A stretch of DNA of 64,000 bases, taken from Somniosus microcephalus (taxonomy: Eukaryota). Made by a program: the position numbers and the translations under genes. Location of the stretch: assembly GCA_052327205.1 (NCBI GenBank), contig CM126205.1:254448001-254512000 (forward strand), in the 5' to 3' direction. The notes under the pieces are model-generated. The model saw only the letters and a program-made list of their open reading frames with translations, did not search any database and was not told where the DNA came from. Of the stretch, positions 12,302 to 45,851 are shown piece after piece (positions within the stretch are counted from its first letter, which is position 1; every line of letters starts with the position of its first letter).

Positions 12302-13844
12302 ATTAAATCATTTAAACAATATTTAAGTTGCAAGTTGCTGAGACTATGTTGCATAAATTACTATTTTGATCAAGTGGGAGCTATATTTAGCCATGAAATA
12401 GTAAACTCAGCAACTGCATTGTATGCAGTTAGGAATCATTGAATTTCTTCCTCATTCTTTTATTCTTCCAGTACCTCTTTAAACATTAGGTCACCTATCA
12501 ACTTTGTGGGATCGGGAGGAAATTACTGACCTGGTTCCTTCTTCAGAAATATGCATTTGCTATCACTGTAAGGTACAGTAGTATTTGATACTGTGAAATC
12601 CACTTTGTATTAGGAATAGAATAGTTATGGAGAATCGATCAACATTCGCAATGAAGACAAGCCATTCCAAAGCTCACATTTCGGACACCTATACAAAGCA
12701 ATCCTATATGCAGGAAAGCACAGGTAGTAGTTTTTTTTTTAATATGAATATGAATTCCATTTGGTTGTGGAAAATACACGCCAATGCATTTTATATATAC
12801 TTTATAGACTTTCAGAAAGCTATTAAATAGCCTAAATTATATTTTCTTTAGTTTTAGAAATGTTATTTACTATAGCTTCCCCCATCCATTGATGGGCTTG
12901 CTGAAGGGTAAGTAGTATCAGGAAGCAATCTGTCGCAGTTGTCGCATAAAGAAAGTCAAAGAGATATAGTACTTTAGAACATTTGCATGCTGTAGGTTAG
13001 TGTATGTGTGTCATTTCTTTCTCTTATTTCCCCACACAATATGAACGCCACCTTGGGCTACTCTCCAGCTTCACCACTAATTTTCAGTTTTCCCATTTGT
13101 ATAGTCTGTTTGAAAATAAGTACATTTTCATTGGTTTGTTTTGGACTGAGCCTTTTGCATGCATTGACATTATCAAGGGTTGCTCCTCTTAAATTCTATC
13201 ATTCCTGATGCAGGAATTTTCTGATGGTCCGTGATTTGTGTTTTTGCTGCTCACCAACTAGATATAACTTATGAGGACTATAAAGGCGATCTCACCTTTT
13301 CATAATGAGTATGGCTTGATTGCAGTCAATGCTAGAGGTCATGGGAAATTGACTTGTAGAGGTTGAATCAGCCTTCCAAAGATGCATTGATTGAAGGAAG
13401 ATCTGGCTGAACATGAGTAAGCACCAAAGGTAACTGGGTCAGCTGGGCTCAAACTATTTCCTCCAGCATTGGATACAGTTTCTACCTAAGTTCAGGGATT
13501 ACATACATGAGCCTAGTATATTGGCTTTTGATTAAAGACATTGATACCACACGATGGGCATAGATCAGCTTTGGTCAAAGCTGTTGCTTCTGTATTTGCT
13601 CCTGTCACAAACTTTATTTATTTGTTCACGGAATGGCTGAATTTATTGCCCAGCCCTAAATGTCCCAATTTATTGCCCATCCCTAGTTTTCCCAAAAGGT
13701 TTGTGATGTGCCTTCTCCTTGAAACGCAGCAGTGCTTCTGGTGATGGTGCTCCTATGATGGTGTTTGGTAGTAAATTCTACATTTTTGACCCAATGGTGA
13801 AAAACAGTGGTATATGTCTAAGTTAGGATGATGATTGATCCTGA

Positions 13845-15899: not shown

Positions 15900-16505
15900 A
15901 ATCATAGAATTATATAGCACAGAAAGAGGCCATTTGGCCCATTGTGCCTGTGCCAGTTCTTTGGTAGAGCTATCGAATTAATCTCACTTCCCCTGCTCTA
16001 TCCTAATAGCCCTGTAGATTTTTTTTTCAAGTACTCTGGGCTCCCACGCTACAATCGGAAGCCGCCTGCCCACCCCATGCCAGACTGGGTTTTACCTCCC
16101 TCACCTCGTGCCACCACCCCACTAACTACCGAGAACAGTCAGTCATTCTCGGGAGTCGCCTCTGCTTCACTCGGAACAGTTTATCGCCCCCTCGCTGGTT
16201 CACACGGGTGGCAGCTGCTGGTCGAGGTGGGAAAAGAAGAAGAGAGGATAATATTACTTACTGCCTTGTGTCTTTTTGAATTGGACAACATGCTGTGCCA
16301 GCCTGTGTGCTCATGAAGTCTCCCCTAGAAACATAGAAGATAGGAGCAGGAGTAGGCCATTCGGCCCCTCGAGCCTGTTCTGCCATTTAATGAGATCATG
16401 GCTGATCATCCAAATTCAGTACCCTGTCCCTGCTTTCTCTCCATATCCCTTGATTCCTTTAGCCTTAAGAAATATATCTAACTCCTTCTTGAATATATTT
16501 AATGA
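15900..16505 (-). mobile_element. Two short CR1 3' tails (15900-16030, 16326-16505)
   Basis: 16326-16505 closely matches the tail at 30600-30752/31090-31115; 15900-16030 resembles 5137-5270. Confidence 0.7.
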
Positions 16506-17972: not shown

Positions 17973-20278
17973 AGGATAGATTTTCCTGCTCCGCTCTCAC
18001 TTGCTCCGACACTGGCTGGGAGTGGTGGGCTGTTTGTGCGCATATCATCAGACTCCGGTTCCCCTGACTGAAACCCCAGATCCCCGTTGCTCAACACTTC
18101 CCCACCTTACCATCCCTCTGTTACGGAACATCACGGCGTCCTCTTGGGAACAATGCTGAAATGAAAGCCACCACAAGACAAATATTCCAAACATAATTTA
18201 TAACTGATTAATCCCAATATAACTTTACAAAGTCAACTAATCAGCCTTGTACATTCCCTTAGTGTCTGTCTTGTTGTTCCTTTGCCTATTTTAGTGCTCC
18301 TACACAGTGCTACCCCAGTGGCTGCAGCATGGTTGGTGGAAGGCTGCTGACTTTCCGAGGGGGACTCTACAGATGACCTTGCAGGACGACCTTGAGCATC
18401 TCTGGGCCTAGAAGGCCTGGCTGTAGACTACACCATCTCGGCATGGGCGGCAGCAATCTGGGCTGGCTGGCTGGCTGACAGACAACAGCAAGGGCACTGG
18501 TAGAGTGGCAGTGGTGGAAGTACGAATTCTGCCATCCTGAGCCACTACGACTCCCTGCGGCGACGCTTCAGCATTCCTAGCCATCTGTTGGAGGACAGAT
18601 TGCTGGACTGCTGTGCGTCCCTGCAAGCCCCTTTCCACACTCTTAAACCCAGCCACGATGGCAGCAGTCTGAGCTTCCACTGCAGCACTTAGACGTTGGG
18701 TCCCTTCCGCTAGTGCTGCAATGGAAGCTGCGACATTGCCCATCACACCCAGCATCATGGTTAGGTCCACAAGTTCTCTACTGGACTTGCCCATCACTTC
18801 CATCCTGGAAATCATGTGTGCCAAGCTCCGCGCAAAGCCCCGTGAAATGTTGGAGCCGGACTCACCCATGCTCCTTGACAGTGACGAGGCTCTATAGCAA
18901 TCCTGCCATTGCACTAAGCATTTCTGTGTGCATGCCCATCACCCTTCTTTTGAAAGCTGCCCCATCGTATTCATCGTCTGAGTCCTGTGCAGCAGTACTT
19001 GTGTGCGATCCGCCCTCTGGGAAGCTGGTGCCTGCGCTACCCTTTTCCCCCTGGCCTGGCTGCAACCCACTCATGCCCGGTGACACACCACGTGCAGATC
19101 CGGCCTCTATACTACCCTCTAAAGTGCGCGCAGTGCCGTTTTCTGAGCTGGTGCCTGGGAGTGTCAGATCGAGTAACGGTGCCTCTTCTCTGTCACTCTC
19201 CTCCTCTACTTCTTGCTGCACAGGCTCAGCTGCTGTCAGTTCTTGGGCAGCACAATGGTCGGGTTGTGGTGAGGGGGGGGCAGGGTAGCAAGATATGCAT
19301 GCCGTCAATCATCAATGCTTTCAACCTCGCCCAGTGCCACGGCCTTACTGACGACCCCATCAATGATTTCTAGCACAGTCTCCTCCAGCTGAGTCAGGTT
19401 GTATAGCTGTGCTTGCATGCCCCCAACTCCCCCATCGTTCCTGCTCTCTTCTGTTATGAGCCACTTTGGCCTGCAAGAGAAAGGGATGTCTGTCAGTGAG
19501 TGTGGTGCAATGTGTTTGGGTGATGTGCCTGTCATGGTTGAATAGCTGGCATTGTGTGCAATGTGTGAGATGTGGGTGTGAGGCTTGCAGCAGTGGTAAT
19601 TGTTTGAGGGTGTGGTGAAGCTATGATTGTGAGCTGTGACTCGTGATTGCTAAAGATTCTTGGTAGGTGAATGATAGGGGTGTGGTGCATTGAGCAGTGT
19701 GTGAGGCTCGTGGTGCAGTTGGTGGGCTATGGCATTTGAAGATGCATTCACTCATCTTGACCACTCGAGTGAGGCCATTAAACTTCTTCCGGCACTGGAT
19801 CCATGTCCTGGGGGCAACACTGTTGGCACTGAAGGCTTCTTTGATTTTTCTCCCACTGCCTTCACACACTGTGTCTGGAGGGCCTCCTGCCCCCCTGCGG
19901 GTAGAGGAGCCTGTCTCCTCCTGTACATCCCTGCACCAAGACCTCCAGTGCTGCATCTGAGAACTGAGGTGCCGCTTTCTCCCGTGTTGAGACATATTGC
20001 TCCAGCTCCAGCTACAATGAAGTACTTCTGTATCAGCGCAACTCCCCTTTAAGAAGTGCAGGCAGCCTTTGACTCTTTAATTAGAGAGCAGACCACACAA
20101 TACTGTTGAACGCTGAGTTAATCAGCAGCGTGTTTAGCGCTGAACTTAGGACTGCAATCATGATAATGAGCAGGCAGCATGAATTTCACGTGCTGCCTGC
20201 ACTACTTTCAAGAGATGTGGGCAGATCACTCATCGCAATCCTTGCAACTGTTTTTGGGCCTAATAAAATTTTGCTGCC
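17973..20278 (-). mobile_element. PIF/Harbinger derivative carrying only the (decayed) Myb/SANT gene
   Basis: APRTWIQCRKKFNGLTRVVK Myb/SANT helix in 19621-19995; downstream exons homologous to the other copies; no nuclease sequence seen. Ends approximate. Confidence 0.75.
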
Positions 20279-20576
20279 AAAGTGTTTTTTTTAAACAAGT
20301 GTGACCGAATAATTTTTGTTTTTTACAATGCTTCTGAAATATTTTGTTTCTAAATGTCTTTGTAGTTGGATCTTGTTTACCATATTAACTTGATTGCTTC
20401 CATTTGTATTTCACCAGAAGAAGATTATACTTCATATACAGTTAATTTAGAAAAAATAAGGGCAAATTAGGAATCAAGATTCAGAATGGTGGTGAGGTGA
20501 AGAAAAGTAAAACAAATACATCAAATGGATACTTCCTATTTGTTTTTAATGATTTATATTCTAATTTTGTTTTCAG

Positions 20577-20696
20577 AACACTCTGCATCGTTAAATAGTG
20601 AACTGAAGAAGTTAACAAAACCAGAGTCAAAAAGGTCTACTGAAAAACAACAGAACGTGGATGTTAAGAAACAGCATGTTGAATCCAAGATGAATG
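20577..20696 (+). CDS. Internal coding exon, 120 nt, phase 1-1 (EHSASLNSELKKLTKPESKRSTEKQQNVDVKKQHVESKMN), probably part of the ERICH2-like gene
   Basis: Branch-like ctaat plus pyrimidine tract tttgttttcag; donor ATG|gtaatt; open frame phase-compatible with exon 45622. Confidence 0.7.
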
Positions 20697-20956
20697 GTAA
20701 TTATATATTAGCAGTAGATTACTTTGCACAGTATTTTTTGTCACTTGCTTATGCCTAATTCAACCATCTCATTGCTGTACTGAATGCTGAGCAGTGTTCT
20801 GCAAATGTATTAATTATGCAGTTCAGTTTTCATTCTTAGAAGAATGAAACTGCATTATTAAAAACCTCTCCAATTACCTGAAAAATGAATTGAGACTGAA
20901 AAAACCTGTTTCACTTAGGACAGTTCAGGGGAGGAGATTGAGAGAGGTTGCATCCC

Positions 20957-22122
20957 TTTTTAAAAATTCATTCCTGAGATGTGGGCGTCGCTGGCAAGGC
21001 CAGCATTTATTGCCCATCCCTAATAGCCCTTGAGAAGGTGGTGGTGAGCCGCCGCCTTGAACCGCTGCTGTCCGTGCGTTGAAGGCACTCCTACAGTGCT
21101 GTTAGGGAGGGAGTTCCAGGATTTTGACCCAGCGACGATGAAGGAATGGCAATATATTTCCAAATCACGATGGTGTGTGACTTGGAGGGGAACTTGGAGG
21201 TGATGGTGTTCCCATGTGCCTGCTGCCCTTGTCCTTCTAGGTGGTAGAGGTCGTGGGATTGGGAGGTGCTGTCGAAGAAGCCTTGGCGAGTTGCTGCAGT
21301 GCATCTTGTAGATGGTACACACTGCAGCCACGGTGTGCTGGTGGTGGAGGCAGTAAATGTTTAGGGTGATGGATGGGGTGCCAGTGAAGCAGGCTGCTTT
21401 GTCCTGGATGGTGTTGAGCTTCTTGAGTGTTCTTGGAACTGCACATATCCAGGCAAGTGGAGAGTACTCCATCACACACCTGACTTGTGCCTTGTAGATG
21501 GCAGAAAGGCTTTGGGGAGTAAGGAGGTGAGACACTCGTCGCAGAATACCCAGCCTCTGACCTGCTCATGTAGCCACAGTATTTATGTGGCTGGTTCAGT
21601 TAAGTTTCTGGTCAATGGTGACCCCCAGGGTGGGGGATTCGGCATTGGATGTCAAGGGGCGGTGGTTAGACTCTCTGTTGTTAGAGATAGTCATTGCCTG
21701 GCACTTGTGTGGTGCGAATGTTACTTGCCATTTATCAGCCCAAGCCTGAATGTCGTCCAGGTCTTGCTGCATGCGGGCATGGACTGCTTCATTATCTGAG
21801 GAGTTGCGAATGGAACTGAACACTGCAGTCATCAGCGAACATCCCCACTTCTGACCTTATGATGGAGGGAAGGCCATTGATGAAGCCATTGATGAAGGTG
21901 GTTGGGCCCAGGATACTGCCCTGAGGAACTCCTGCAGCAATGTCCTGGGGTTGAGATGATTGGCCTCCAACAACCACGACCATCTTCCTTTGTGCTTGGT
22001 ATGACTCAAGCCAGTGGAGCATTTTCCCTCTGATTCCCAGTGACTTCAATTTTACTAGGGCTCCTTGATGCCGCACATGGTCAAATGCTGCCTAGATAGC
22101 AAGGGCAGCCACTCTCACCTCA
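20957..22122 (-). mobile_element. Non-LTR retrotransposon 3' fragment (family of 6335-9290)
   Basis: GVPQGSILGP, MFADD, MEYSPLAW; absent from the paralogous site near 35528. Confidence 0.9.
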
Positions 22123-22473
22123 CCATGAATCTGGACTTGATTTGAATTCAAAGGTAAAAGGGAAATAACCTGCAGTTCATCCTAATCCTCAGAATGCACA
22201 TTTTCAATTCTTTCTTTCAAGTTGTCTAATAATGCCAGTTTTGGTAGATATTTTCTTAGTTTACCAGTAATGACCAGGCTTCCTTACAATGTGAATCAGG
22301 TCTGTAGCTTTCAAGTTGTATTACCAACATTTATTACGATGCATGATTTTAATCTTCTAGAGTATTGCTGGGTAACACATTCCCTCTGTAGGATTTTAAA
22401 AGTAACAAATTTCAAATTGACACGTGCAGTCAAGTTGTGGACATTTACTCATGTCTTTTGCTGTGTTTGTGTT

Positions 22474-25400
22474 TGTTATGTATTATGTGTTCTATTGTGT
22501 GTTCTCCTCCCACCTGTGGTGGCGCTGTCACAGGAGATAAATGGTTGGGTATTCTCTCGGTTAAGTTTAGCTCTCTTTGTTCGGAACTTGCCAGAACTTC
22601 CTTTCCTTCCAATAAAGCACTTCATGTTTGAATCTCTGAGTTCTGAGTCCTAAATTGTGTCTAGGTAGAAAGGTACCGACACAACAAGTGGCGACGAGGA
22701 GCGGATGAATCTGCATACGTTACGGGTGCAGTGAGTAAACAGAAAATTTAATTTGAAACGTGAGATGGCTACTATATTAGGAAACATCGGTGATTTTGAT
22801 GAAAATGTGGAGCAATGGAGCGCATATACGGAATGTTTTGACTATTTTGTATTGGCGAATGCGGTGGCAAATGAAAAGGTCGTGCCTACCTTTTTGAGTG
22901 TAATCGGGTCGAAGACTTTCAATTTACTTCGCAGCCTCGTGTAGCCAGATAAGCCAGGAACTAAAACATATGAGCAACTAGTGGAAATTCTTGGAGTACA
23001 TTTTTCACCAAAACCTCTGGTTATTGCTGAGAGATTTAGATTTCACAAACGGAATCAAGAGGAGGGGGAATCAGTGACGATGTTTATTGCTGCTTTAAAA
23101 AGGTTGTCGGAACACTGCCAGTTCAAGGAGGTGCTGAATGACACCATTAGAGACAGACTTGTGTGTGGTCTGCAAAATGCAGCCACACTGAAGCGCCTTC
23201 TTACTGAGGACAACCTTACTCTTGAAAAGGCCATTGAAGTTAGTGTCTCCATGGAGATGGTGGAAAAGGAGGCTCACCAGTTGAGTTCAACAGGGAGAGT
23301 TCACAAGGTGTCGTCTGAGCCTAAAGATGCGCGGAACGGCACATGTTACCGTTGTGGGAAAACGGGCCATCACGCTAATGACTGCTGGTGTACGGAGCTG
23401 GAATGCCGAAATTGTGGCAAAAAGGGTCACATTGAACGCGCCTGTAGAGGTAAAAAAAGAACAGACAGAGCTGGGAAGCATGGAAGCAAAATGCCTGTAT
23501 TTGGACAAGAGAGGAAAAAGAGTGTTCATTCAGTGCAGTATGATGGAACAAGCAAAACAGAGGGGAGTGACACCTCTGAGGAGGAAGAGGTGCATATACT
23601 GACGGTTGCAGGTGGTTCAAATGGCTACTGGGTGTCACCACTGGTGGAGGGACAATCAGTGCAGATGGAGGTGGACACAGGCGCGGCTGTGTCCCTTGTT
23701 TCAGACACTGTCTACAACAAAATGCTAAAGCATCTTACCCTTCAGCCAACAAACATTGTGCTAAAGACGTATACCGGCGAACCTGTGGCCATGAGAGGCG
23801 TCATTGAGGTGACAGTTAAATTGAACGGACAGACTGCAAAACTGCCACTATATGTGGTAAAGGGAAATTACCCATCACTACTGGGACGTGCGTGGCTAGA
23901 GAAAATCATGCTGGACTGGCCTGCAGTCCGCATGATGTCAAAAGGGGAGTCAGGCCTGACTGCAGTGTTAAACAAACATGCAGAACTCTTCAATGGGGAA
24001 CTTGGGAGCATGAAAAAGATCAGCGTGAGACTGGACATTAAACCTGACAGCAAGCCGAAGTTTCACAAAGCCCGACCTGTACCCTATGCAATTAAGCCAA
24101 AAGTTGAGGCTAACTTGGAGGCCTTAGTCGAGAATGGAGTCCTGGAGCCTGTGAGCGTGAGCAAATGGGCCACACCCATTGTTCCTGTCCTGAAAAAGGA
24201 TGGATCTGTTCGAATCTGCGGGGATTTTAAAGTGACTATTAACCCGGTGCTGTCTGTGGAACAGTACCCTCTTCTCCTCATTGATGATCTTTTTACGGGC
24301 CTGGCCGGAGGGCAAAAGTTCAGCAAAATAGACTTATGCCAGGCTTATCTAAAAATGCATGTCGATGACAAATCAAAGGAGCTGCTGACAATTGTGACAC
24401 ACAAGGGGCTATACAGGTACTGCCGCCTTCCATTTGGAATTACGTCGGCCCCAGCTCTATTCCAAAGGGCAATGGATCAGATTTTGAGTGGACTGCCAGG
24501 AGTCCAGTGCTACCTGGACGACATCCTTGTCACTGGGACAAATGAGGAGGATCATCTTCTGAACTTGGATGCGACACTACAACGACTGAAAGAGTACGGA
24601 CTCAGAGTTCGTAAAGACAAATGTGAATTCTTTCAGTCTTCAGTTGAGTACCTGGGGCATGTGATTGATGCTACTGGCCTGCATAAGGCGCCGCCAAAGG
24701 TCAAGGTGATCGTGGAGGCCCCAGCACCCCAGAATGTGAGCCAGTTACGTTCATTTCTGGGGCTACTTAACTACTATGGGAAGTTTATTCCAGACATAGC
24801 AACATTGCTGAAGCCGTTACATCAGTTGCTATGTCAAGGCAAAATATGGAAATAGACTGAACTGTGCAACGAAGCTTTCGCCCAAGCAAAGAAAGCATTG
24901 CTGAATTCGGAGGTCCTGACACACTTCGACCCAAAGCTACCCGTGCAGCTAGCATGTGATGCATCACCATATGGTGTGGGAGCAGTCATATCCCACATCA
25001 TGCCTTCGGATTAAGAGAAACCTATCGCCTTCACATCACGCACCTTGAACAAGGCCGAGAGTAACTATGCGCAGATCGAGCGCGAGGCCTTGGGAATCGT
25101 TTTTGGAATTCGAAAATGTCACCAGTACCTGTTTGGGAGAAGGTTCACACTCCTGACAGACCACCGTCCATTGACTTCAATCTTCGGGCCCCACACCGGA
25201 ATTCCGTCTCTCGCTGCAAGCAGGATGCAAAGGTGGGCTTTACTGTTGTCAGGACACACATACGACATCAAATATCGCAAATCAGACTTGCACGGCAACG
25301 CAGACGGTCTCTCGAGGCTACCCTTGCCTGTTACTCCCCCAGAGCCTCGTCAGATAGACATCTTCTACTTTAGACAAGTGGAGGGAGCACCTGTCACTGC

Positions 25401-27119
25401 AGTTCAGGTGCGAAGGTACACCCGCAACGATCCAGTCCTGTCTGAGGTAATGGACGATGTCATTCGAGGGAGAGCGATAGGAGATTCTCCTAGTTTGAAA
25501 CCTTACGTTTCAAAAAGAAATGAGCTCTCCGTCCAGGCAGGTTGTCTTCTTTGGGGACGCCGTGTCATCATTCCGCCACCTCTGAGGGAACCTATACTGC
25601 AACAACTTCATACAGGCCACAGTGGGATGGTTCAGATGAAGGAAATGGCAAGAAGCTACTTCTGGTGGCCAGGTCTCGATGGGAATATTGAGGAGAAAGC
25701 CAAAACATGTTCCCCATGTCAAAGGGTCCGGAATGTTCCACAGCTGGCAACCCTACACCCCTGGGATTGGCCTGCAGAAGTGTGGCAGCGAGTACATGTG
25801 GACTTCGCCGGTCCTTTCGAAGGGAAGATGTTTATGGTGGTTGTGGACGCTCGTAGCAAGTGGCCGGAGGTCGCTGTGATGAGGTCTACCACGGCAGAGA
25901 AAACAATTGAGAAACTTGGTGAGATGTTCAGCCGTTATGGCTCACCGGAACAACTCGTAAGTGACAATGGTCCACAATTTGTATCACAGGAGTTTGCAAC
26001 CTTCCTGCATGTGAATGGTGTCCAACACATCAGGTCTGCGCCCTATCATCCCTCTACTAACGGCCAGGCAGAAAGGTTCGTGCAAACTTTGAAGCACGCT
26101 TTGAAGGCATCGCAAGGTCAGGGCTCAATCCACCAACGCCTGAACAGCTTCCTGTTGTCCTACAGGAACGAGCCGCATGCCACAACCAAAACTTCCCCCG
26201 CTTCGCTCATGATGAAGAGGCAGTTGCGGACAAGTTTTGACTTACTCAAACCTCCAAGGGCAGAGCAGGTTGTCCATCGTCAACAACAAGCTCAAGTTGA
26301 AAAGAGAGAGAAAAGAGCCAAGGAGAGACGGTTTCATCCGGGAGAGCACGTCCTAGCTCGAAACTACAACACTGGACCGAAATGGGTTCCTGCTACGGTG
26401 ATCGCACAGACGGGCCCTGTGTCTTACACGGTTGAGACTGCTGAGGATGTCGTCTGGAGAAGACACACAGATCAACTGTTGCTAGGAGCAGAGACAGCCA
26501 CAGAGGCTCCAACGGCTGGTTGGCCTGAACTGTTTCTGAATGATACCGCAAACCAGCATCCTTTGCCACAGTGCTCTTCTCCAACACAGGAAGTCAAAGA
26601 GACTGTTCCACCTGTGCAAACTCCTGACTTTCAACTGACACAGGCACCTTCTCCATCCAGGCCTGTGTCAATGCCTACTGCTGTGGAAGCCAGCGATGAC
26701 CGCCGGTATCCTGTCAGAGAGCGTCGGCCTCCAAGACGCTTGGATCTGTAGGCTTAGTGACTTACCCACAAGACTGAGGCAGAATAAACCCCAGGGTAAA
26801 GTCAGGGTTTCAGGCAGTCTACCTCTACCCTAGGTTAGTTGAGTGTATTGAAAGTAACTTACCTATTGAGGAATAATGTGGACCTTCCATTTAAGAGGGG
26901 AGGAAATGTTATGTATTGTGTGTTCTATTGTGTGTTCTCCTCCCACCTGTGGTGGCGCTGTCACAGGAGATAAATGGTTGGGTATTCTCTCGGTTAAGCT
27001 TAGCTCTCTTTGTTCGGAACTTGCCAGAACTTCCTTTCCTTCCAATAAAGCACTTCATGTTTGAATCTCTGAGTTCTGAGTCCTAAATTGTGTCTAGGTA
27101 GAAAGGTACCGACACAACA
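22474..27119 (+). mobile_element. Full-length Ty3/Gypsy (Mag-like) LTR retrotransposon
   Basis: 213-bp LTRs 22474-22686 and 26907-27119 (TG...CA, two mismatches seen); 5-bp TSD GTGTT; PBS TGGCGACGAGGA (complementary to tRNA-Ser(GCU) 3' end); PPT AAGAGGGGAGGAAA. Confidence 0.97.
22765..26751 (+). pseudogene. gag-pol polyprotein, single frame with three premature stops (22942, 24853, 25012)
   Basis: Two CCHC, VDTGA, YLDD, RNase H, HHCC/DDE integrase. All ORF pieces share one frame. Confidence 0.92.
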
Positions 27120-27124
27120 GTGTT

Positions 27125-28670
27125 AAGAACATAAGAAATAGGAGCAGGAGTAGGCCACTCGGCCCTTCGAGTCTGCTCCGCCATTCAATAAGATCATGGC
27201 TGATCTTCTACCTCATCTCCACTTTCCTGCACTATCCCCATACCCCCTGATTCCCTCTATATTCAAAAATCTATCGATCTCTATCTTGAATATACTCAAC
27301 GACTGAGCCTCCACAGCCTTCTGGGGTAGAGAATTCCAAAGATTCACCACCCTCTGAATGAAGAAATTTCTCCTCATCTCGGTCCTAAATGGCCGACCCC
27401 TTATTCTGAGACTGTGACCCCCTGGTTCTGGAGTCCCCAACCAGGAGAAACATCCTCCCTGCATCTACCCTGTCAAGCTGTAAGAATTTTGTATGTTTCA
27501 ATTAAATCACCTCTCATTCTTCTGAACTCTAGGCCTAGTCTACTCAATCTCTCCTCATAGGACAATCCCCCCATCCCAGGAACCAGTCTGGTGAACCTTC
27601 TTGCACTCCCTCTATGGCAAGTATATCCTTCCTTAGGTAAGGAGACCAAAACTGTACAAAATACTCCAGGTGTGGTCTCACCAGGGCCCTATATAATTGC
27701 AGTAAGACGTCTTTACTCTTGTACTCAAATCCTCTTGTAATAAAGGCCAACATACCATTTGCTTTCCTAATTGCTTGTTGTTACCTGCATGTTAACTTTC
27801 AGTGATTCATGTACAAGGACACCCAGGTCCCTCTGAACACCAACATTTCCCAATCTCTCACCATTTAAAAAATACTCTGCTTTTCTATTTTTCCTACCAA
27901 AGTGGATAACTTCACATTTCTCCACATTATATACCATTTGCCATGTTCTTACCCGCTCACTTAGCCTGCCTATAGCCCCTTGAAGCCTCCTTGCATCCTC
28001 CTCACAACTTGCATCCTTAACCAGCTTTGTATCATCAGCAAACTTGGATATAAATTACATTTGGTCCCCTCATCCAAATCATTGATGTAGCTTGTGAATA
28101 GCTGAGGCCCAAGCACTGATCATCGTGGTACCCCACTAGTTACAGCCTGCCAACCCAAAAATGACCTGTTTATTCCTACTCTCTGTTTTCTGTCTGTTAT
28201 CCAATCCTCAATCCATGCTAGTATATTACCCCCAATCCCATAAGCCCTAATTTTGTTTAATAACCTCTTGTGTGGCACCTTATCAAATGCCTTCTGAAAA
28301 TCCAAATACACCACATCCACTGGTTCCCCCTTATCTATTCTGCTAGTTACAACCTCTAAAGACTCTTAACAGATTTGTCAAACACGATTTCCCTTTCATA
28401 AATCCGTGTTGACTCTGCCCAATCCTATTATTTTCTAAGTGCCCTGTTACCATGTTCTTAATAATAGATTCTAGCATTTTCCCTACTACTGATGTCAGGC
28501 TGTAACTGGTCTGTAGTTCCCCATTTTCTCTCTCCCTCCTTTCTTAAATAGTGGGGTTACATTTGCTACCTTCCAATCCGTGGGAACCGTTCTGGAATCT
28601 ATGGAATTTTGGAAAATGACAACCAATGCATCCACTATCTCTATAGCCACCTCTTTCAAAACCCTAGGAT
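27125..28670 (-). mobile_element. CR1 LINE, 5'-truncated
   Basis: YLDFQKAFDKVPH, LYRALVRPHLEY, FRTEMRRNFF; (ttcttatg)-type tail. Confidence 0.92.
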
Positions 28671-29384
28671 GTTTCACCTGGCCACCCTTTCCGAGTCTTG
28701 ATTCCTAATTTGCCCTTTTTTCCAAACTAGGGCCACTATGACTCATAATTAGTCATAGATTCTAGATAGATTTTCTTGGGCTTTTGCATAACTGGCTTTA
28801 GTTTACTTTGGTTTGAGAAATTGAAACTTCAATAGTGATTTTTGGAGCTCATCTCAGCAGAAAGTTAAGAAATAATCAGGGTTTGGAAGCCCATGTTTGT
28901 GAGTCAACTGTTCAACTTTTAAACGGTTTGCAATGTATTAGGCCAACTGGATAAATAGCTGTTTCTAGATGGTGTTCCTCACCTGGTCAAAGTTCCTCCC
29001 TGTTACACTTGGGAACCATTGAAAAACTGCTAATGTTTTACAAGAAAAAGATTTTTCTCTGAGCCGTTTTTGACAACCAAGGGATCTGGAGGATTTTGCC
29101 CTAGTTTAGGGATAAGCAAATTCCTCGAGAAGGAGAAGTTCATGAGCATTACACAATCTCAGACATTTTTCCTAAGTGATTGGTAGGCCTTGATTCACCT
29201 CCTGAATGTATTTTCATGTTGAGATTGACCCAGGACATCAGGCGTTCTTGTTTAAGGAAACAACACTTGCTTGTTTATCTTTGTTTAGCTGTTGCAACAC
29301 TCTGAGGACCCCATCAATGAACAACAGTGACAACATATGCAACAGGTTTTCTGCATCTCCAGGATTATTATTAATTATAAGAAA

Positions 29385-29510
29385 TCTTACTCTTCTTTGA
29401 ATTGTGCCATGAGATCTTTAACGATTTAACACATCATCCAAAGGACCTGACTTCCATCACAATGCTCCCTCATTACTGCATTGAAATATCTATCTAGATT
29501 ATGAGCTAAT
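29385..29510 (-). mobile_element. Decayed Deu-SINE-like fragment
   Basis: gtgccatgagatcttta, catccaaagga, ccctcattactgcattg resemble the reverse complement of the Deu-SINE body. Confidence 0.4.
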
Positions 29511-29964
29511 GTATCATCAGAGGCCTTATAACAAGCAATCAAATAAAATGAAGAACAAACCTCCACACTTTTGTGTTACTATGCACACTGAAAAAGCATT
29601 GAAACATTGTTTTAACGACTGCCCAAAAACAGTAATAATATTTCCAAGACACCTATATACAAAGTGTTTATTGCAAGTGTGATCAAATTATTATTTTTTT
29701 TTACAATGGTTCTGAAATATTCTGTTAAATTTCTTTGTAGTATAATTCTGTAGTAGGATCTTGTTTACCATATTAACTTGATTGCTTCCATTTGTATTGC
29801 ACCAGAAGAAAATTTTACTTCATATACAGCTAATTTAGAAAAAATAAGCACAAATTAGGAATCAAGATTCAGAATGGTGGTGAGGTGAAGAAAAGTAAAA
29901 CAAATACATCAAATGGATACTTCCTATTTGTTTTTAATGATTTATATTCTAATTTTGTTTTCAG

Positions 29965-30084
29965 AACACTTTGCATCGTCAAATAGTGAACTGAAGAAGT
30001 TAACAAAACCAGAGTCAAAAAGGTCTTCTGAGAAACAACAGAACGTGAATGTTAAGAAACAGCATGTTGAATCCAAGATGAATG
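29965..30084 (+). CDS. Duplicate 120-nt phase 1-1 exon (EHFASSNSELKKLTKPESKRSSEKQQNVNVKKQHVESKMN)
   Basis: Five substitutions versus 20577-20696; splice sites intact and identical. Confidence 0.68.
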
Positions 30085-30754
30085 GTAATTATATATTAGC
30101 AGTAGATTACTTTGCACAGTATTTTTTGTCACTTGCTGTACTGAATGCTGAGCAGTGTTCTGCAAATGTATTAATTATGCAGTTCAGTTTTCATTCTTGG
30201 AAGAATAAAACTGCATTATTACAAACTTCTTACATTACCTGAAAAATGATTTGAGACGGAAAAAATACAATGACTTCAGTCTTCCCAGTATTTAGTTAGA
30301 GGCAATTTCTGCTGTCGGACAAGCAGTGTGACAAATCAGAGACAGTCGAGGGGTTGAGATAGGTGGTGGTGAGGTAGAGCTGAGTGTTGTCAGCGTACAT
30401 GTGGAACCTGATGTGTTTTTGGATGATGTCGCTGAGGGGCAGCATGTAGATAGGAGGGGGGCCAAGGATAGATCCCTGGGGGGCTCCAGAGGTAACAGTG
30501 TGGGAGCAGGAATTGAAGCCTTTGCAGGCGATTTTCTGGCTACGACTGGATAGATAAGAATGGAACTAGACGAGGGCAGTCCCACCCAGCTGGACGACAT
30601 AGAAACATAGAAGATAGGAGCAGGAGTAGGCCATTCAGCCCCTCGAGCCTGTTCCGCCATTTAATGAGATCATGGCTGATCATTCAAATTCAGTACCCAG
30701 TCCCAGCTTTCTCCCCATATCCCTTGATTCCTTTAGCCTTAAGAAATATATCTA

Positions 30755-31087
30755 CAGGAAACTTTGGTTTATCCGGAGGTTGTATGTCCGGAAACCTCGA
30801 TCTACTGGCAGAAATCAGGAGCCGTTTTGTTAGGTTTTTTTTCTTCTCGTGGCTTTTTTTTTCCAACAGTCAGGCTCTGGAAAGTCTCTCTGAAGCTGTT
30901 GCTAAGCTACAGAGACGCTTCCAAGGTACGGGCCGACTGTTTAGAAGCTGTTGCTAAGCAACAGTGTTTGTTGTCAGATACGGAGATGAAAACCTCCGTA
31001 TGCTTCAACATTAACGCTGGTATGTCTGGCAGTTTTGATAGATCGGCAACAGCTCGGTCCCGTCGGTGCCAGATATAACGTTTCCTG
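30755..31087. mobile_element. Tc1/mariner (pogo/Tigger-like) MITE
   Basis: TIR CAGGAAAC...GTTTCCTG with TA duplication; the empty site is visible in the related tail at ~16478; second copy at 58785. Confidence 0.85.
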
Positions 31088-32608
31088 TAACTCTTTCTTG
31101 AATATATTTAATAAGTTGGCCTCAACTGCCTTCTGTGGTAGAGAATTTCACAGGTTCACCACTCTCTGGGTGAAGAAATTCCTCCTCATCTCAGTCCTAA
31201 ATGGCTTACCCCTTATCCTTAGACTGTGACCCCTGGTTCTGGACTCCCCTGCCATCGGGAACATCCTTCCTGCATCTAGTCTGCCTAGTCCTGTTAGAAT
31301 TTTATAAGTTTCAATGAGATCCCCTCTCATTCTTCTAAACTCTAGCGAATATAAGCCTAATCGACCCAATCTCTCTTCATCCGTTATTCCTGCCATCCCA
31401 GGTATCAGTCTGGTGAATCTTCGCTGCACTCCCTCCATGGCAAGAACATCCTTCCTCAGATAAGGCGACCAAAACTGCACACAGTACTCAAGGTGTGGTC
31501 TCACCAAGGCCCTGTACAACTGCAGCAAGATATCCTTGCTCCTGTACTCGAATCCTCTCGCTATGAAGGCCAACATACCATTTGCCTTCTTAACCGCCTG
31601 CCGCACCTGCATGCTTACCTTCAGCGACTGGTGCACAAGAACACCCAGGTCTCGTTGCACTTCCCCTTTTCCCAATCTATTGCCGTTCAGATTCTTCCTG
31701 TTTTTGCCACCAAAGTGGATAACCTCGCATTTATCCACATTATACAGCATCTCCCATGCATCTGCCCAATCACCCAACCTGTCCAAATCACACTGGAGTT
31801 TCTCTGCATCCTCCTCACAGCACACACGCCCACCCAGCTTTGTGTCGTCTGCAAACCTGGAGATATTACATCTAGTTCCCTTGTCTAGATCATTAATATA
31901 TATTGTGAATAGCTGGGGTCCTAGCACCGATCCCTGCGGTACCCCACTAGTCACTGCCTGCCACTCGGGAAAAAAACCCGTTTATTCCAACTCTTTGCTT
32001 CTTGTCTGCTAACCAGTTCTCTATCTAAGTCAGTACCTTACCCCCAATCCCATGTGCTTTAACTTTGCACACCAATCTCTTATGCGGGACCTTATCGAAA
32101 GCCTTCTGAAAGTCCAAATACACCACATCCACTGGTTCTCCCTTATCTATTCTACCAGTTACATCCTCAAAAAATTCCAGTAGATTAGTCAAGCATGATT
32201 TACCTTTTGTAAATCCATGTTGACTTTGTCCGATCCTGTCACTGTTTTCCAAGTGCTCTGCTATTACATCTTTTATAATGGACTCTAGCATTTTCCCCAC
32301 TACCGATGTCAGGCTTAACGGTGTGTAATTCCCCGTTTTCTCTCTACCACCTTTTTTGAATAGTGGGGTTACATTAGCTACCCTTCAATCCATGGGAACT
32401 ATTCCAGAGTCTATAGAATTTTGGAAGATGACCAGCAATGCATCTACTATTTCTAGGGCCACTTCCTTAAGTACCCTAGGATGTAGATTATCAAGCCCTG
32501 GGGATTTATCGGTCTTCAATGCCGTCAATTTCCCTAACACCATTTCCCTACAAATACTGATTTCATTCAATTCCTCCCTCTCATTAGACCCTATGTTCCC
32601 CGACATCT

Positions 32609-32968
32609 CACACACACAGAATCACACAGAAACCCCACAGTGCAGATAGAGGCCATTTCGGCCCATCGAGCCTGCACCGACACATATCCCACCCGATCCC
32701 CGTAACCCCTACACCAACACATATCCCACCCTATCCCTGTAACCCCACGTATTTAATCCCCCTAACACTAAGGGTCAATTTATCATAGCCAATCAACCTA
32801 ACCCGCACATCTTTGGACTGTGGGAGGAAACCGGAGTACCCGGAGAAAACCCACGCAAACACGGGGAGAATGTGCAAACTCCACACAGACAGTCGCCCGA
32901 GGCCGGATTCGAACCCGGGTCTCTGGCGCTGTGAGGCAACAGTGCTAACCACTATGCCACCGTGCTGC
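32609..32968 (-). mobile_element. tRNA-derived V-SINE (HE1-like)
   Basis: A box TGGCATAGTGG, B box GGTTCGAATCC, V-domain tgtgtggagtttgcacattctccccgtg, LINE-like tail. Confidence 0.9.
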
Positions 32969-35900
32969 TCTGGGAGGTTATTTGTGTCCTCCTTTGTGAA
33001 GACAGAACCAAAGTATGTATTTAATTGGTCTGCCATTTCTTTGTTCCCCATGATAAATTCCCCTGATTCTGACTGCTAGGGACCTACGCTTGACTTCACC
33101 AATCTTTTTCTCTTCACATATCTATAGAAACTTTTACAGTCAGTTTTTATGTTCCCTGCAAGCTTACTCTCATATTCTATTTTCCCCCTCTTAATTAATC
33201 CCTTTGCCCTCCTTGGATCTTATGCTATCCCTAATTTCCCTTGTTCGCCACCTTGAGTCACCTTTTTTGTTTTATTTTTATGCCAAACAGGGATGAACAA
33301 ATTCTGTAGTTCATCCATGCGATCTTTAAATGTTTGCCATTGCCTATCCACCGTCAACCCTTTTAAGTAACGTTCCCCAATCCATCCTAGCCAACTCGCG
33401 CCTCATACCATCTTAGTTTCCTTTATTTAAATTCAGGATGCTAGTCTCTGAGTCAACTACTTCACTCTCCATCTTAATGAAGAATTCCATCATATTATGA
33501 TCGCTCCTCCCCAAGGGGCCTCGCACAACAAGATTGCTAATTAATCCTTTCTCATTACGCAATACCCAGTCTAAGATGGCCTGATCTCTAGTTGGTTCCT
33601 CGACATATTGGTCCAGGAAACCATCCCGTATACATTCTAGGAATTCCTCCTCCACATTATTGTTACTAATTTGGTTAGCCCAATCTATATGTAGATTAAA
33701 GTCACCCATGATAACTGCTGTGCCCTTATTGCACGCATCTCTAATTTCCCATTTAATGCCATCCCCAACCTCAGCATTACTGTTTGGGGGTCTGTATACA
33801 ACTCCCACTAACGTTTTCTGTCCCTTGGTATTTCTCAGCTCTACCCATACAGATTCCACATCATCAGAGCTAATATCCTTCCTTACTATTGTGTTAATCT
33901 CCTCTTTAACCAGCAATGCTACCCCACCTCCTTTTCCTTTTTGCCTGTCCTTCCTGAATATTGAATACCCCTGGATGTTGAATTCCCAGCCTTGGTCACC
34001 CTGGAGCCATGTCTCCGTAATTCCAATTACATCATATCCATTTACATCTATTTGCACTGCTAATTCATCCACCTTATTACAAATGCCCGTCGCATTAAGA
34101 CACAAAGCCATCAGGCTTGTTTTTTTAACATTCTTAGTCCTTTTAGAATTATTATTTACTGTAGCCCTGTTTGATTTACACCCTTGATTTCTCTGCCTTC
34201 CACTTTTGCTTTTCTCCTTCCTGTCTTTTGTTTCTATCCTTGCTTCCCTTTCCACTGTCTCCCTGCACAGGTTCCCAACCCCCTGCCATTTTAGTTTATA
34301 CCCTCCCCAACAGCACTAGCAAACACTCCCCCTAGGACATCGGTCCCGGTCCCACCCAGGTGCAAACCGTTCAGTTTGTACTGGTCCCACCTCCCCCAGA
34401 ACCGGTTCCAATGTCCCAGGAATTTGAATCCCTCCCCCTTGCACCACTCCTCTAGCCACGTATTCATCTGAAATATCCTTCTATTTCTACTCTGACTAGC
34501 ACGTGGCACTGGTAGCAATCCTGAGATTACAACCTTTGAGGTCCTATTTTTTAGTTTACTTCCTAACTCCCTATATTCTGCTTTTAGGACCTCATCCCGT
34601 TTTATACCTATGTCGTTGGTACCTATATGCACCACGACAACTGGTTGTTCACCCTCCCCCTCCAGAATGCCCTGCAGCCGCCCCGAGACATCCTTGACCC
34701 TTGCACCAGGGAGGCAAAATACCATCCTGGAGCCTCATTTACAGCCACAGAAACGCCTATCTATTCCCCTTGCAATAGAATCCCCTATCACTATAACTCT
34801 CCTGCTCTTTCTCCTCCTGTCCTGTGCAGCAGAACCACTCATGGTGCCAGGAAGTTAGCTGCTGCTGCCTTCCCCTGATAAGCCATCTCCCTCAACAATA
34901 TCCAAAGTGGTATATCTGTTTGAGAGGGGGATGGCCACAGGGGACGGAGGAGAGGCGTTAGAGGAGGATGGTGTGGTCAACCATGTCAAAGGCTGCAGAC
35001 AGGTCGAGAAGGATGAGGAGGGATAGTTTACAATGGTCACAGTCACAAAGGATGTCATTTGTGACTTTGATAAGGACCGTTTCAGTGCTGTGGCAGGGAC
35101 GGAAACCTGATTGGAGGGGTGCAAGCATGGAGTTGCAGAAAAGATGGGCATGGATTTGAGAGGCGACAACACGTTTTAGGTCTTTGGGAAGGAAAGGGGT
35201 ATTGGAAATGGGGCGGTAGTTTGCAAGAACAGAGGGCTCAGGGTGGGTTTTTTGAGGAGGGGGGCTTTGAAGGGGAGGGGGACAGTACCTGAGGAGAGGC
35301 AGCTGTTAATAATATCAGCTAACATGGGGACCAGGAAGGGAAGATGGGTGGTCAGCAGTTTGGTGGCAATAGGGTTGAGGGAGCAGGAAGAGGGTCTCAA
35401 ACTATGCAATTCAGTTTTCATTCTTAGAATAATGAAACTGCATTATTACAAACTTCTCATATTGACTGAAAAAACCTGTTTTAGTTAGGAAAATTGAGGA
35501 GAGAGGATATTGAGAGAGGTTTTATCCCTTGTATCTGGACTTGATTTGAATCCAAAGGACAGTAACCTAAATCCTTCTAATCCTCAGAATGCACTTTTTC
35601 AATTGTTTCTTTCAAGTTGCTAATAATGCCAATTTTGGTAGATATCTTCTCAGTTTACCAGTAATGATCAGGCTTCCTTGCAATGTGAATCAGATCTGTA
35701 GGTTCCAAGTTGTATTACCAATATTTATTATAATGTATGATTTTAATCTTCTCGAGTATTGATGGGTATCACATTTCCTTTGTAGGAGTTTAAAAGTTAC
35801 AAGTTTCAGATTGACACTTGCAGTCAAGTTGTGGACATTTGCTCATGTCTTTTGTTGTGTTTGTTTTACTGTTTCACCTGACCACCCTCTCCGAATCTTG

Positions 35901-36340
35901 ATTCCTAATTTGCCCTTTTTTCCAAACTAGGTCCACTATGATTCATAATTAACCATAGATTCTAGATAGATTTTCTTGGGCTTTTGCATAACTGGCTTTA
36001 GTCTACTTTGGTTTGAGAAATTGAAACTTCAGTAGTGATTTTTGGAGCTCATCTCAGCAGAAAGTTAAGAAATAATCAGGGTTTGGAAGTCTGTGAATCA
36101 ACTGTTCAACTTTTAAACAGTTTGCAATGTATTAGGCCAACTGGATAAATAGCTGTTTTTAGATGGTGTTCCTCACCTGGTCAAAGTTCCTTCCTGTTAC
36201 ACTTGGGAACCATTGAAAAACTGCTGATGCTTTACAAGAAAAAGAGATTTTTCTCTGAGCCTTTTTTGACAACCAAGGGATCTGGAGGATTTTGCCCTGG
36301 CTTAGAGATAAGCAAATTCCTCGAGAAGGAAAATTGCAAT

Positions 36341-38598
36341 GGGCCAGAATTGCAAGCCCCGTTTTTGCACTTACCCCGCGCTCCTGCCGATCAGCTCCAG
36401 GGACGCCTGCACTTGCTGAAACAGAAAGAAGAATCCCGGGCAGCGTATGACGTCACGCCGCCTAGGAGTGCAGCCAGCGCGAAGCCAGGAGCGTGCAGTG
36501 CAAGTGAGACACGCCCCTTGAGGTCTCAGTTTCACTGGACACGCCCCCAATGTTTCTGTCAAGCTGCTAAGCATTTTTACATGCAAAGCAGCAGTTTAAA
36601 TAGGTTTCTGGAAGTTTTTTGAAGATTTTGGTAACTTTTATAAACTTTTTAAAATGTTTACATTATTTTGAGTAATCTGAAGTAGTTTTAAAGAGAATTA
36701 AAGCAATTTAAAGACTTTTAAAAGCCCTAAAAGAATTTTTTTTATTCCATTTATTTATTTAGCAATGTCGTCGTCATACGTGTCTTCACACTGTTCCCTT
36801 TGGGGAACTGTATGAAGTGGTGGAAGGATTTATGGCCATGATTAATGCTCATTCCGTGACCGTAACCATCTTTGAACCAGCCATTAGGGCGGTTAGTCCT
36901 ATGGCGGGAGGGTTTTACGGGCTCCCACAAGCTATACAAGGAGTGGGGGCCACCCACACCCACGGACGCAAATATCCCACTGGATGTCAACCCAGAATTT
37001 AGAGCCGGAGCTCCGACTCCACTTGCCGGGACTGTCTGGAGCGGGGTTCGAAACCCTACCCTGATCTGGCCCAGCGGCGGGGATCCTACCGCTATGACAA
37101 AGGCCCAATCCGATTAGCAACGTGAAATGGCAGCATAGGGCTCCAGTCACGGGGAGGGAAAAGGCACAGGAAACGTATGGGTGTCACCTTTTGTGCGGAG
37201 TGGGCCTTTTGCGTAGCAGTAAGCATCCCCGCCGCTGGGCCAGAAGGGGTAGGGTTTTGAACCCCACTCCAGACAGTCCCGGCAAGTGGAGTCGGAGCTC
37301 CAACTTTAAATTCTGGGTGGACATCCAGCGGGATACTTGCGTCCGTGGGTGTTGGTGGCCCCCCCCCCTCAGATGGGTTGTGGGAGCCCGTAAAACCCTC
37401 CTGCCATAGGACTAACCACCCTAATGGCTGGTTCAAAGATGGTTACGGTCACAGAATGAGCGTTAATCACGGCCATAAATCCTTCCACCACTTCATACAG
37501 TTCCCCAAAGGGAACAGTGTGAGGATACGTACGATGATGACCTCTTGCGCAATGCACCTCCTTGGACCCTCAGTCGCAGATGCGAGGGGGCAAGTCGTGC
37601 AATTGTTAAATTTTTCATTTTATTGACATGTAAAATGTTGGCCCAGTAATTCCCTTCCAAATGTGCGAGTACGGTCGGGGTACTTACGCATCTGGCTGGA
37701 TGAAATGCCGGTTTTCAGCATGCACAGTGCATGTGGGGAAAACCGGCATTTCCTGTCCTCTGAACGAAGGAGTTCAGAGGCAGAACGCGTGCGACTGCAC
37801 AGGCAGTGCGTGCGCAGTATAATTCGCCGCTTTCATTAATGCTTTCAGTGAGGTCAAGTCATTACAACTTACACATGAAAAAAGCATGGGTACAGTTGCT
37901 CCAGAGGCTGCGGAGGAAGATATTTATTATCGTGGAGCTTCTGAAAGTATGTATGTCTGTATATATTCCTTTGCGTGTTATGTATATATTCCTTTACTTA
38001 TGTGTATGAATGTATTATTTAATTATGACTTTCAGAGAAAGTAACTTATTGGAAAATCATAATTAAAAACATACATTCATACACAGTAAAGGAATATAAA
38101 ACATACATACATATACGTAAAGGAATATATGTGGACATACATACATAACTCATTCTCACATTCCACTCACACAGCCACAATTGCTCCTTCTACCTACCGT
38201 TCTGAAAACCCTTTAAAAAAAAAAAAAAAAAAAAATTAACTTTAAAACTTACTTAAAATTTCTTAAAATAACTTCCCTCCCTTTCCCAAACAAAAATATT
38301 GCATTTCAGAAGCTCCACGATAAAATATATCTTCCTCCGCAGCCAATGAACAACTTTACACTTGCTTTTTTCAAGTGTAACTTCTAAGGACTTACCCTCA
38401 CTGAATCCATCATTGAAATCCACAAAGTTCACTGCGCAAGCGCTGCCTGTGCAGTCGCACGCGCTGTGAATAGACCTCGGGTCTGGAAATGCCGGCGTTC
38501 CCCGCATGCGCTGTTCCTGCTGAACGCCGGCATTTCCAACGGCCAGATGCGTGAGTACCCCGACCGTACTCACGCTTCTGGCCGCGAATTTCTGGCCC
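36341..38598. mobile_element. Composite non-autonomous TIR element with two long internal foldbacks
   Basis: Termini GGGCCAGAA(T/A)T / ATTTCTGGCCC with 3-bp TSD AAT; inverted arms 36767-37112/37195-37541 and 37640-38040/38050-38598. Confidence 0.8.
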
Positions 38599-45621: not shown

Positions 45622-45851
45622 ATGCAAAAAAGTATCTCAATTCTTCAGCTACTAAGGAAGCAAAAGCACTGGCAGTCTCTGTAACCACTGTTGAACCATA
45701 CAACTTAGCAACCACCAGTACTACTAACAGAATTTCAGATGACTCTGGAGAGGATGATGGTGCAAATGAAGGTGAAGAGGGGGATGATGATGTTGATAAT
45801 GAAGGCAGCAAAAAAGAAGAAAGAAGGGCACCAATAGAGTTGATGGGGGAG
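45622..45851 (+). CDS. ERICH2: Internal exon of glutamate-rich protein 2 (phase 1-0)
   Basis: Strong acceptor tttttcttttctgttttgcag and donor GAG|gtaaaa. Acidic tract then APIELMGE, matching my recollection of vertebrate ERICH2 (APLELMAE-FL...). Not database-verified. Confidence 0.72.

What the first reader, a model, noticed from the sequence alone, without database searches (positions are those of the whole stretch)
20443..35930. Each duplicated exon is bracketed by complementary ~85-nt intronic segments: candidate competing RNA-pairing splicing switch
Seen: the segment just upstream of each 120-nt exon (U1 20443-20531, U2 29831-29920) is the reverse complement of a segment downstream of it (D2 35845-35930; D1 22452-22473 plus 28670-28730). 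Identity is roughly 80%, and U1/D2 share a perfect 24-nt core, agggcaaattaggaatcaagattc. 20463-20576 (most of U plus the acceptor, 114 nt) is identical between copies, while the exons differ at 5/120 and distal flanks differ more. The three D1-versus-D2 changes in 28671-28730 keep (G.U) or improve pairing with U. Known: long-range intronic pairing drives exon loop-out and back-splicing, and underlies the docking/selector mechanism of Dscam1. Inference: the order U1-exonA-D1-U2-exonB-D2 allows alternative helices. U1:D1 or U2:D2 would skip one exon, U1:D2 both, and D1:U2 neither. All outcomes stay in frame because the exons are phase 1-1. This could be an exon-count switch created by one duplication.
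Basis: partly seen in the sequence, partly recalled or inferred. Interest (0 to 1): 0.72.

Follow-up and report, generated by a model that had tools for sequence, protein, structure and literature searches.

The report
Inverted repeat in duplicated ERICH2 exon
A shark ERICH2 gene carries two copies of one small coding exon, each flanked by short mirror-image intron segments; these are likely a decaying DNA-copying scar carried along by the duplication, not an evolved splicing switch.

Summary
The anatomy is real. Two 120-nt phase 1-1 exons of ERICH2 (20578-20697, 29966-30085) each have an upstream segment U complementary to a downstream segment D; the four arms are the only copies found in the genome. 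The switch reading is not supported. D1 is cut by 6.2 kb of LINE and LTR element. D is no better kept between copies than its flank (4/82 v 17/398). With the opposite arm as outgroup, every change since the duplication at a paired base weakens pairing and none compensates. G.U is not favoured (1 v 3 A.C in U1:D2). Stronger LINE-derived duplexes bracket the same exons, and two other single-copy inverted repeats lie 90 kb away. In 8 other sharks (1-5 copies of the unit) 24 of 24 multi-exon protein models keep every copy; whether those species have U/D is unknown. The two RNA runs had no reads on the exons laid, so splicing itself is untested. One point favours regulation: 227 intronic bases beside the exon are identical between copies. 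This scan judged similar intronic inverted copies in another genome to be scars.

The parts
12614..12723 (+). ERICH2 coding exon upstream of the duplicated exons; ends in phase 1
   Evidence: tblastn of shark ERICH2 proteins; splice ends
20278..29137 (+). Copy 1 of the tandem duplication (about 1.5 kb of shared sequence, spread by later insertions)
   Evidence: self-BLAST blocks 20278-20904, 20812-20958, 22123-22473, 28670-29137
20443..20531 (+). U1, upstream arm; ends 46 nt before the acceptor
20463..20837 (+). Exon-centred block of near identity between the copies: 0 of 227 intronic substitutions, one 27-nt indel, 5 exonic substitutions
20578..20697 (+). Exon A, 120 nt, phase 1-1, one 40-residue unit of ERICH2
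20957..22122 (.). Interspersed repeat inserted between exon A and D1
   Evidence: 85% copies at 6340-7442 and 54072-55139; very deep contig cover
22452..22473 (+). D1 proximal remnant
   Evidence: U1 duplex only -18.4 kcal/mol
22474..27119 (+). LTR retrotransposon inside D1: 213-nt LTRs differing at 2 sites, 5-nt target duplication; zinc knuckle, protease, RT, RNase H, integrase matches
27126..28669 (-). LINE 3' fragment inside D1
   Evidence: 77% over 1410 nt to 31091-32484, which holds an RT match
28670..28730 (+). D1 distal part with the core
29660..36333 (+). Copy 2 of the tandem duplication
29831..29919 (+). U2; two adjacent substitutions (29849-29850) break the end of the core
29966..30085 (+). 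Exon B, 120 nt, phase 1-1
30266..35399 (.). About 5.1 kb of inserted repeats between exon B and D2, including a minus-strand LINE (RT and endonuclease matches)
35845..35930 (+). D2, intact downstream arm
45622..45851 (+). ERICH2 coding exon downstream of the duplicated exons; begins in phase 1

Best explanation
The window holds a tandem duplication of one 120-nt ERICH2 exon with its intron flanks, and the four complementary arms are likely the inherited, decaying halves of a single older local inverted duplication, with both exons probably spliced in together. Steps: (1, inferred) a replication template switch or similar event copied about 85 nt of the intron upstream of the exon, reversed, some 720-760 nt downstream; (2, shown as anatomy) a segment holding U, the exon and D was duplicated in tandem, giving U1-A-D1-U2-B-D2; (3, shown) repeats then moved the arms 5.9-8.1 kb apart and split D1; (4, inferred) the arms drift without compensation, and the duplication adds a second 40-residue charged unit to the protein, as larger arrays do in other sharks. 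Occasional pairing and some skipping or back-splicing are possible but would be incidental.
For: Arms single-copy and local. Spacing without insertions 755 and 717 nt. D1 v D2 4 of 82 substitutions against 17 of 398 in the adjoining flank (Fisher p 0.74 for the distal part) and 31 of 306 in the preceding flank (p 0.19). Four-way alignment: U2 lost two core pairs, D2 lost one pair, D1 turned two pairs to wobble; no double-sided compensatory change. Mismatch types G.U:A.C 1:3, 1:4, 2:3, 2:4 in the four pairings. Antisense duplexes as strong or stronger in 3 of 4 comparisons. D1 split by LINE and LTR element. LINE-derived inverted pairs of -155 to -160 kcal/mol also bracket A+B or B. Two other single-copy inverted repeats, one of 86 nt, 87%, 685-nt spacer, among 107 inverted pairs in 614 kb. 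Unit count constant within species in 24 of 24 models from 8 sharks, while the same search returned many separate splice-isoform clusters for turtles.
Against: 0 of 227 intronic substitutions next to the exon against 17 of 398 (p 0.0005) and 5 of 120 in the exon (p 0.005): this looks like selection on splice-control sequence or gene conversion, and 69 nt of U lie inside it. U ends only 46 nt from the acceptor. The D arm and 400 nt behind it are better kept than other flanks (21/480 v 55/529, p 0.0003). The pre-insertion U1:D1 duplex is stronger on the sense strand (-84.8 v -77.7). No RNA read covered the exons laid, so inclusion is inferred from other species whose introns I could not see. Four RefSeq isoform numbers (Pristiophorus X4, X5; X3 of both Chiloscyllium) were not among the cluster members.
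Confidence: 0.68

Rival explanations
1. U:D was a functional loop-out (or back-splicing) stem around a single cassette exon in the ancestor; after duplication the intact pairs U2:D2 and U1:D2 still tune skipping, but there is no evolved four-way choice.
For: Intron flanks of the exon are identical between copies, as is typical of regulated cassette exons (own knowledge). U lies 46 nt from the acceptor. Duplexes of -84 to -93 kcal/mol. Inverted Alu pairs within 5000 bp are enriched around skippable human exons (PMC13019027, passages).
Against: The conserved block includes 113 nt downstream with no partner and does not single out D. No G.U excess. Single-copy sharks show no skipped model: Pristiophorus 4 of 4, Heptranchias 3 of 3 keep the unit. 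Arms are now 5.9-15.3 kb apart.
Confidence: 0.17
2. One reading: competing helices U1:D1, U2:D2, U1:D2 and D1:U2 set whether 0, 1 or 2 units enter the mRNA, and are kept by selection.
For: Order and complementarity are as needed; all products in frame. Duplication of stem arms is a published route to competing structures (PMC6071210). D1:U2, the 'include both' helix, is the closest pair (1.1 kb).
Against: D1 broken by two insertions; uncompensated losses in U2 and D2; D1:U2 is the weakest helix (-62.2); stronger LINE duplexes compete. No count-variant isoform in 17 of 17 models from the six sharks with 3-5 units.
Confidence: 0.07
3. U and D are the terminal inverted repeats of a very old or very low-copy DNA transposon or foldback element that landed around, or captured, the exon.
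For: Inward-facing arms of about 85 nt with sharp ends: no significant inverted homology beyond them in 200-shuffle tests, one borderline p 0.045 among 9 outer tests.
Against: No further copy among the 4 candidates of the DNA search or at up to 2 mismatches to the 24-nt core in 6.4 Gb; contig depth over U and the exon fits two copies; the duplicated unit extends beyond both arms; the exon is shared with all sharks examined.
Confidence: 0.08

Closest known systems
Duplication-born competing RNA structures, Ivanov and Pervouchine 2018 (PMC6071210; parts 1 and 3 of 5 and passages read)
   Same: A tandem duplication that takes an exon with intronic stem arms makes several competing pairings by itself.
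   Different: Their two scenarios copy one arm, or one arm each of two stems; here both arms of one exon-spanning stem were copied. Their cases are annotated mutually exclusive exons with conserved intronic elements; neither was shown here.
Dscam1 docking/selector and ATE1 R1-R5 competing structures (Dscam as described in PMC6071210; ATE1 PMC7797038, search listing and start of abstract only)
   Same: Intronic complementary segments beside homologous tandem exons.
   Different: Those give one-of-n choice with conserved, tested elements; here orthologous models include all units and the arms show uncompensated decay.
Inverted-repeat loop-out skipping and back-splicing by Alu pairs (PMC13019027, passages; PMC13019944, listing only)
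   Same: Complementary segments in the two introns flanking a short exon.
   Different: Arms are single-copy, about 85 nt, and 5.9-15.3 kb apart; no skipping or circle was observed.
Template-switch inverted repeats (PMC5453318, abstract and start of introduction)
   Same: A local single-copy reverse-complement copy with no transposon family behind it.
   Different: That paper treats short local events; the 720-760-nt spacing here is inferred after removing insertions and no outgroup intron was available to show the switch points.
ERICH2 of other sharks (RefSeq/GenBank models)
   Same: The same 40-residue unit; 3-5 tandem units in Heterodontus, Chiloscyllium, Rhincodon, Scyliorhinus; 1 in Pristiophorus and Heptranchias.
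   Different: A and B are 90% identical to each other and at most 82% to any other unit, pointing to a separate, younger duplication; the 39-column tree does not give this pair strong support.

Membership tests
Competing-RNA-structure splicing switch (docker/selector, bidirectional) | Tandem homologous exons | tested here: met
   115 of 120 nt identical, same phase
Competing-RNA-structure splicing switch (docker/selector, bidirectional) | Intronic segments able to form mutually exclusive helices | tested here: met
   four duplexes -62 to -93 kcal/mol sharing the same core
Competing-RNA-structure splicing switch (docker/selector, bidirectional) | Pairing elements conserved above flanks, with compensatory changes | tested here: not met
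   between the two paralogous copies only: D 4/82 v 17/398 flank; no compensatory change; no G.U excess
Competing-RNA-structure splicing switch (docker/selector, bidirectional) | Conservation and covariation across species | not testable with these tools
   no other shark genome is held; metagenome scan found 0 matches
Competing-RNA-structure splicing switch (docker/selector, bidirectional) | Alternative (exclusive or count-varying) exon use in transcripts | tested here: inconclusive
   no RNA depth on the exons laid; 24 of 24 orthologous models keep all units, indirect
Competing-RNA-structure splicing switch (docker/selector, bidirectional) | Splicing changes on disruptive and is restored by compensatory mutation | not testable with these tools
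   needs a minigene
DNA transposon / MITE terminal inverted repeats | Dispersed family of copies | tested here: not met
   4 local matches only; the DNA search can miss diverged copies
Known structured RNA family (snoRNA, miRNA, cis-element) | Rfam match over U or D | tested here: not met
   3 weak matches in 19500-36500, none over the arms, all far below gathering
ADAR editing-complementary sequence | A-to-I changes in the duplex | tested here: inconclusive
   no RNA reads over U1 or exon A; the duplex does not include the exon
Local inverted duplication (template-switch type) | Single-copy reverse-complement copy close to its source, decaying neutrally | tested here: met
   similar single-copy pairs nearby
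Local inverted duplication (template-switch type) | Outgroup lacking one arm, showing the switch points | not testable with these tools
   no orthologous intron available

The most novel reading that the evidence does not exclude
One duplication of an exon-spanning stem created a four-arm switch that sets the number of 40-residue units (0, 1 or 2) in testis ERICH2, and the same stem, if ancestral in sharks, accompanies or favours the repeated expansion of this exon to 3-5 copies in other lineages.
Probability: 0.07. Interest if true: 0.55.

Novelty: new member of a known kind. Interest (0 to 1): 0.16.

Why it matters
If the best reading holds it matters little: a neat example of how a duplication multiplies a chance inverted repeat and mimics a docking/selector layout. 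Erich2 is testis-enriched and dispensable for male fertility in mice (PMC7401030, passages). If the switch were real it would be a vertebrate case of competing structures caught soon after birth, in a layout (both arms of one stem copied) that the two scenarios I read in PMC6071210 do not cover, and the 1-to-5 copy series across sharks would make it testable by comparison.

Tried and rejected
No RNA holder was listed by the run search; two same-species RNA runs laid on 12400-22470 (24% and 31% of each run read) had zero depth in the bins holding the upstream exon and exon A, so they say nothing on splicing or editing. RNA cover of exon B and the downstream exon is untested. Pfam and the protein atlas gave nothing for the 39-residue unit. 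Rfam gave nothing over the arms. A degenerate scan of metagenome contigs for the exon gave 0 matches. A longer, older inverted duplication with a selectively kept core was tested and not found; the one significant inner hit (z 4.3) is a local hairpin present twice because of a short duplication at the copy-2 insertion. An ATG-bearing segment ending near 12888 looked like an upstream exon but the orthologues map to 12614-12723. Assembly artefact rejected: contig depth over the exon bin is about twice single-copy in one DNA run (76.9 v 32-45) and raised in the other (30.4 v 16-26). Two of four background inverted pairs were dropped as genome-wide repeats. The whole-region self-BLAST timed out and was redone in sliding windows. 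Left out of the isoform count: an 80-residue partial model, the truncated Mustelus model and all ray models, which start at or after the unit. Supplementary files of papers were not consulted. I ran four paper searches; none was aimed at shark ERICH2 splicing alone and the 20 of 38 ERICH2 papers listed had no such title, so no claim of absence from print is made.
Full report
Observation. The self-comparison of the window confirms a tandem duplication (20278-29137 and 29660-36333) and four inverted matches among U1, D1, U2 and D2. The 24-nt core is perfect in U1 and D2, with one mismatch in D1 and two in U2, and these are its only matches at up to two mismatches in the 6.4-Gb genome; DNA searches with D2 and with the U2-exon B block also returned only local matches. 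The exons are 120 nt, differ at 5 sites, and are phase 1-1. Duplex energies are U1:D2 -92.7, U2:D2 -83.9, U1:D1 distal -70.7 and D1 distal:U2 -62.2 kcal/mol, against -26.3 +/- 5.4 for 392 random intron windows.

The gene. The exon at 45622-45851 matches glutamate-rich protein 2 (ERICH2) of sharks and rays, best 87% to Pristiophorus and 84% to Heterodontus. tblastn of five orthologues places further exons at 12614-12723, upstream of the window and up to 28 kb beyond its end. Exons A and B each encode one 40-residue, lysine- and glutamate-rich unit. Four of the five A/B differences change an amino acid. Mouse Erich2 is testis-enriched and its loss did not reduce litter size (PMC7401030, passages). 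Contig depth in two DNA runs fits two real copies.

History of the arms. Both copies hold both arms, so the inverted repeat is older than the duplication. Without later insertions the arms were 755 and 717 nt apart; now U1-D1 is 8139, U2-D2 5926, D1-U2 1101 and U1-D2 15314 nt. D1 was cut by a minus-strand LINE fragment (27126-28669; 77% to an RT-bearing copy) and by an LTR retrotransposon at the junction (22474-27119; LTRs differ at 2 of 213; Pfam RT, protease, RNase H, integrase). The proximal remnant pairs with U1 at only -18.4 kcal/mol.

Is the pairing under selection? D1 and D2 differ at 4 of 82 aligned sites, like the 400 nt behind them (17 of 398) and not significantly below the 306 nt before them (31; p 0.19). 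In the four-way alignment, using the opposite arm to polarise, U2 lost two core pairs, D2 lost one pair, and D1 changed two Watson-Crick pairs to wobble; I see no double-sided change. Transition mismatches should favour G.U over A.C if the sense strand pairs; the counts are 1:3, 1:4, 2:3 and 2:4 (not independent, small numbers). The antisense strand pairs as well or better in 3 of 4 comparisons; the exception is the reconstructed pre-insertion U1:D1. No older, longer inverted homology surrounds the arms.

What speaks for regulation. The 114 intronic bases before and 113 after the exon are identical between copies apart from one 27-nt indel, against 5 of 120 in the exon (p 0.005) and 17 of 398 in the best-kept flank (p 0.0005). 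This is either selection on splice-control sequence or gene conversion, and I cannot separate them. It covers most of U, but equally a downstream stretch with no partner, so it does not need U:D pairing. D and the 400 nt behind it form a second better-kept block (21/480 v 55/529), again not specific to D.

How special is such a repeat here? In 614 kb around the window 107 inverted pairs of at least 50 bits lie 0.1-16 kb apart; 100 have distant local copies, 3 are U/D pairs, 2 proved to be genome-wide repeats and 2 are single-copy. One of these, in L011, is 86 nt, 87% identical, with a 685-nt spacer and a duplex of -136.5 kcal/mol; it lies beyond the last mapped ERICH2 coding exon and I recognised no exon between its arms (a small exon is not excluded). 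Within the ERICH2 introns, LINE-derived inverted pairs of -155 to -160 kcal/mol also bracket A+B (16340-16472 with 44330-44457) or B (27138-28151 with 43448-44457). Two notes from this scan on another genome reached a scar verdict for similar intronic inverted copies; I did not check them and count them only as a lead.

Transcripts. Two RNA runs with the same species label had zero depth in the bins holding the upstream exon and exon A, so splicing, circles and editing are untested. Indirectly, the unit occurs once in Pristiophorus (4 of 4 models) and Heptranchias (3 of 3), three times in Scyliorhinus canicula (2 of 2), four times in S. torazame (3 of 3), Heterodontus (3 of 3) and Rhincodon (2 of 2), and five times in Chiloscyllium punctatum (4 of 4) and C. 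plagiosum (3 of 3): 24 of 24 keep the species' full count. The same search did return many separate isoform clusters for turtles. Limits: four isoform numbers were not seen, these are predicted models, and whether those species carry U/D is unknown. A and B are closer to each other (90%) than to any other unit (at most 82%), suggesting a separate young duplication, with weak tree support.

Comparison and verdict. Ivanov and Pervouchine (PMC6071210) already propose that duplicating an exon with stem arms yields competing structures; the layout here (both arms of one stem) is a simple further case. It could work like such a switch on paper, but it fails the conservation test that could be run and the transcript test is open. 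Best reading: inherited inverted-duplication scar with both exons included (0.68); residual loop-out effect (0.17); old transposon ends (0.08); evolved four-way switch (0.07). Interest 0.16.

Noticed in passing
window 20578-20697 and 29966-30085; proteins P0001-P0025, P0106-P0115: The 40-residue ERICH2 unit varies from 1 to 5 tandem copies across sharks and is reduced or absent in ray models; the duplication here looks independent of the larger arrays.
   Followed up: partly
window 20463-20837 v 29851-30198: Intron flanks are identical between copies (0 of 227) while the exon has 5 changes, 4 of them amino-acid changing; selection or conversion unresolved.
   Followed up: partly
L011 1913-1998 / 2683-2768 and 2864-2908 / 4217-4261: Two adjacent single-copy inverted repeats (86 nt at 87%; 45 nt at 100%) within 2.4 kb, downstream of ERICH2.
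   Followed up: partly
window 22474-27119: Young LTR retrotransposon (LTRs differ at 2 of 213) with long gag-pol frames in two pieces; a related inverted element lies at about 192-4830.
   Followed up: no
window 36767-37541 and 37632-38606: Long nested palindromic elements (782 nt, 84% self-inverted; a second with 315-nt arms) just after copy 2.
   Followed up: no
window 20824-20852, 30185-30213, 35408-35448: A small local hairpin about 130 nt downstream of each exon, present a third time because about 75-90 nt are repeated on both sides of the copy-2 insertion.
   Followed up: partly
window 19491-19527: A 33-37-nt unit inside a repeat draws tens of thousands of 'goes back' RNA reads in one run, suggesting a transcribed tandem satellite elsewhere in the genome.
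   Followed up: no
window 20463-20992: In the second organism's DNA contigs one piece carries the copy-2 form of the 27-nt indel but runs into copy-1 flank; either a merged assembly path or a different conversion state.
   Followed up: no
window 12851-12888: A short AG...GT-bounded segment ending in an in-frame ATG-bearing phase-1 donor; possible alternative exon, not matched by orthologues.
   Followed up: no
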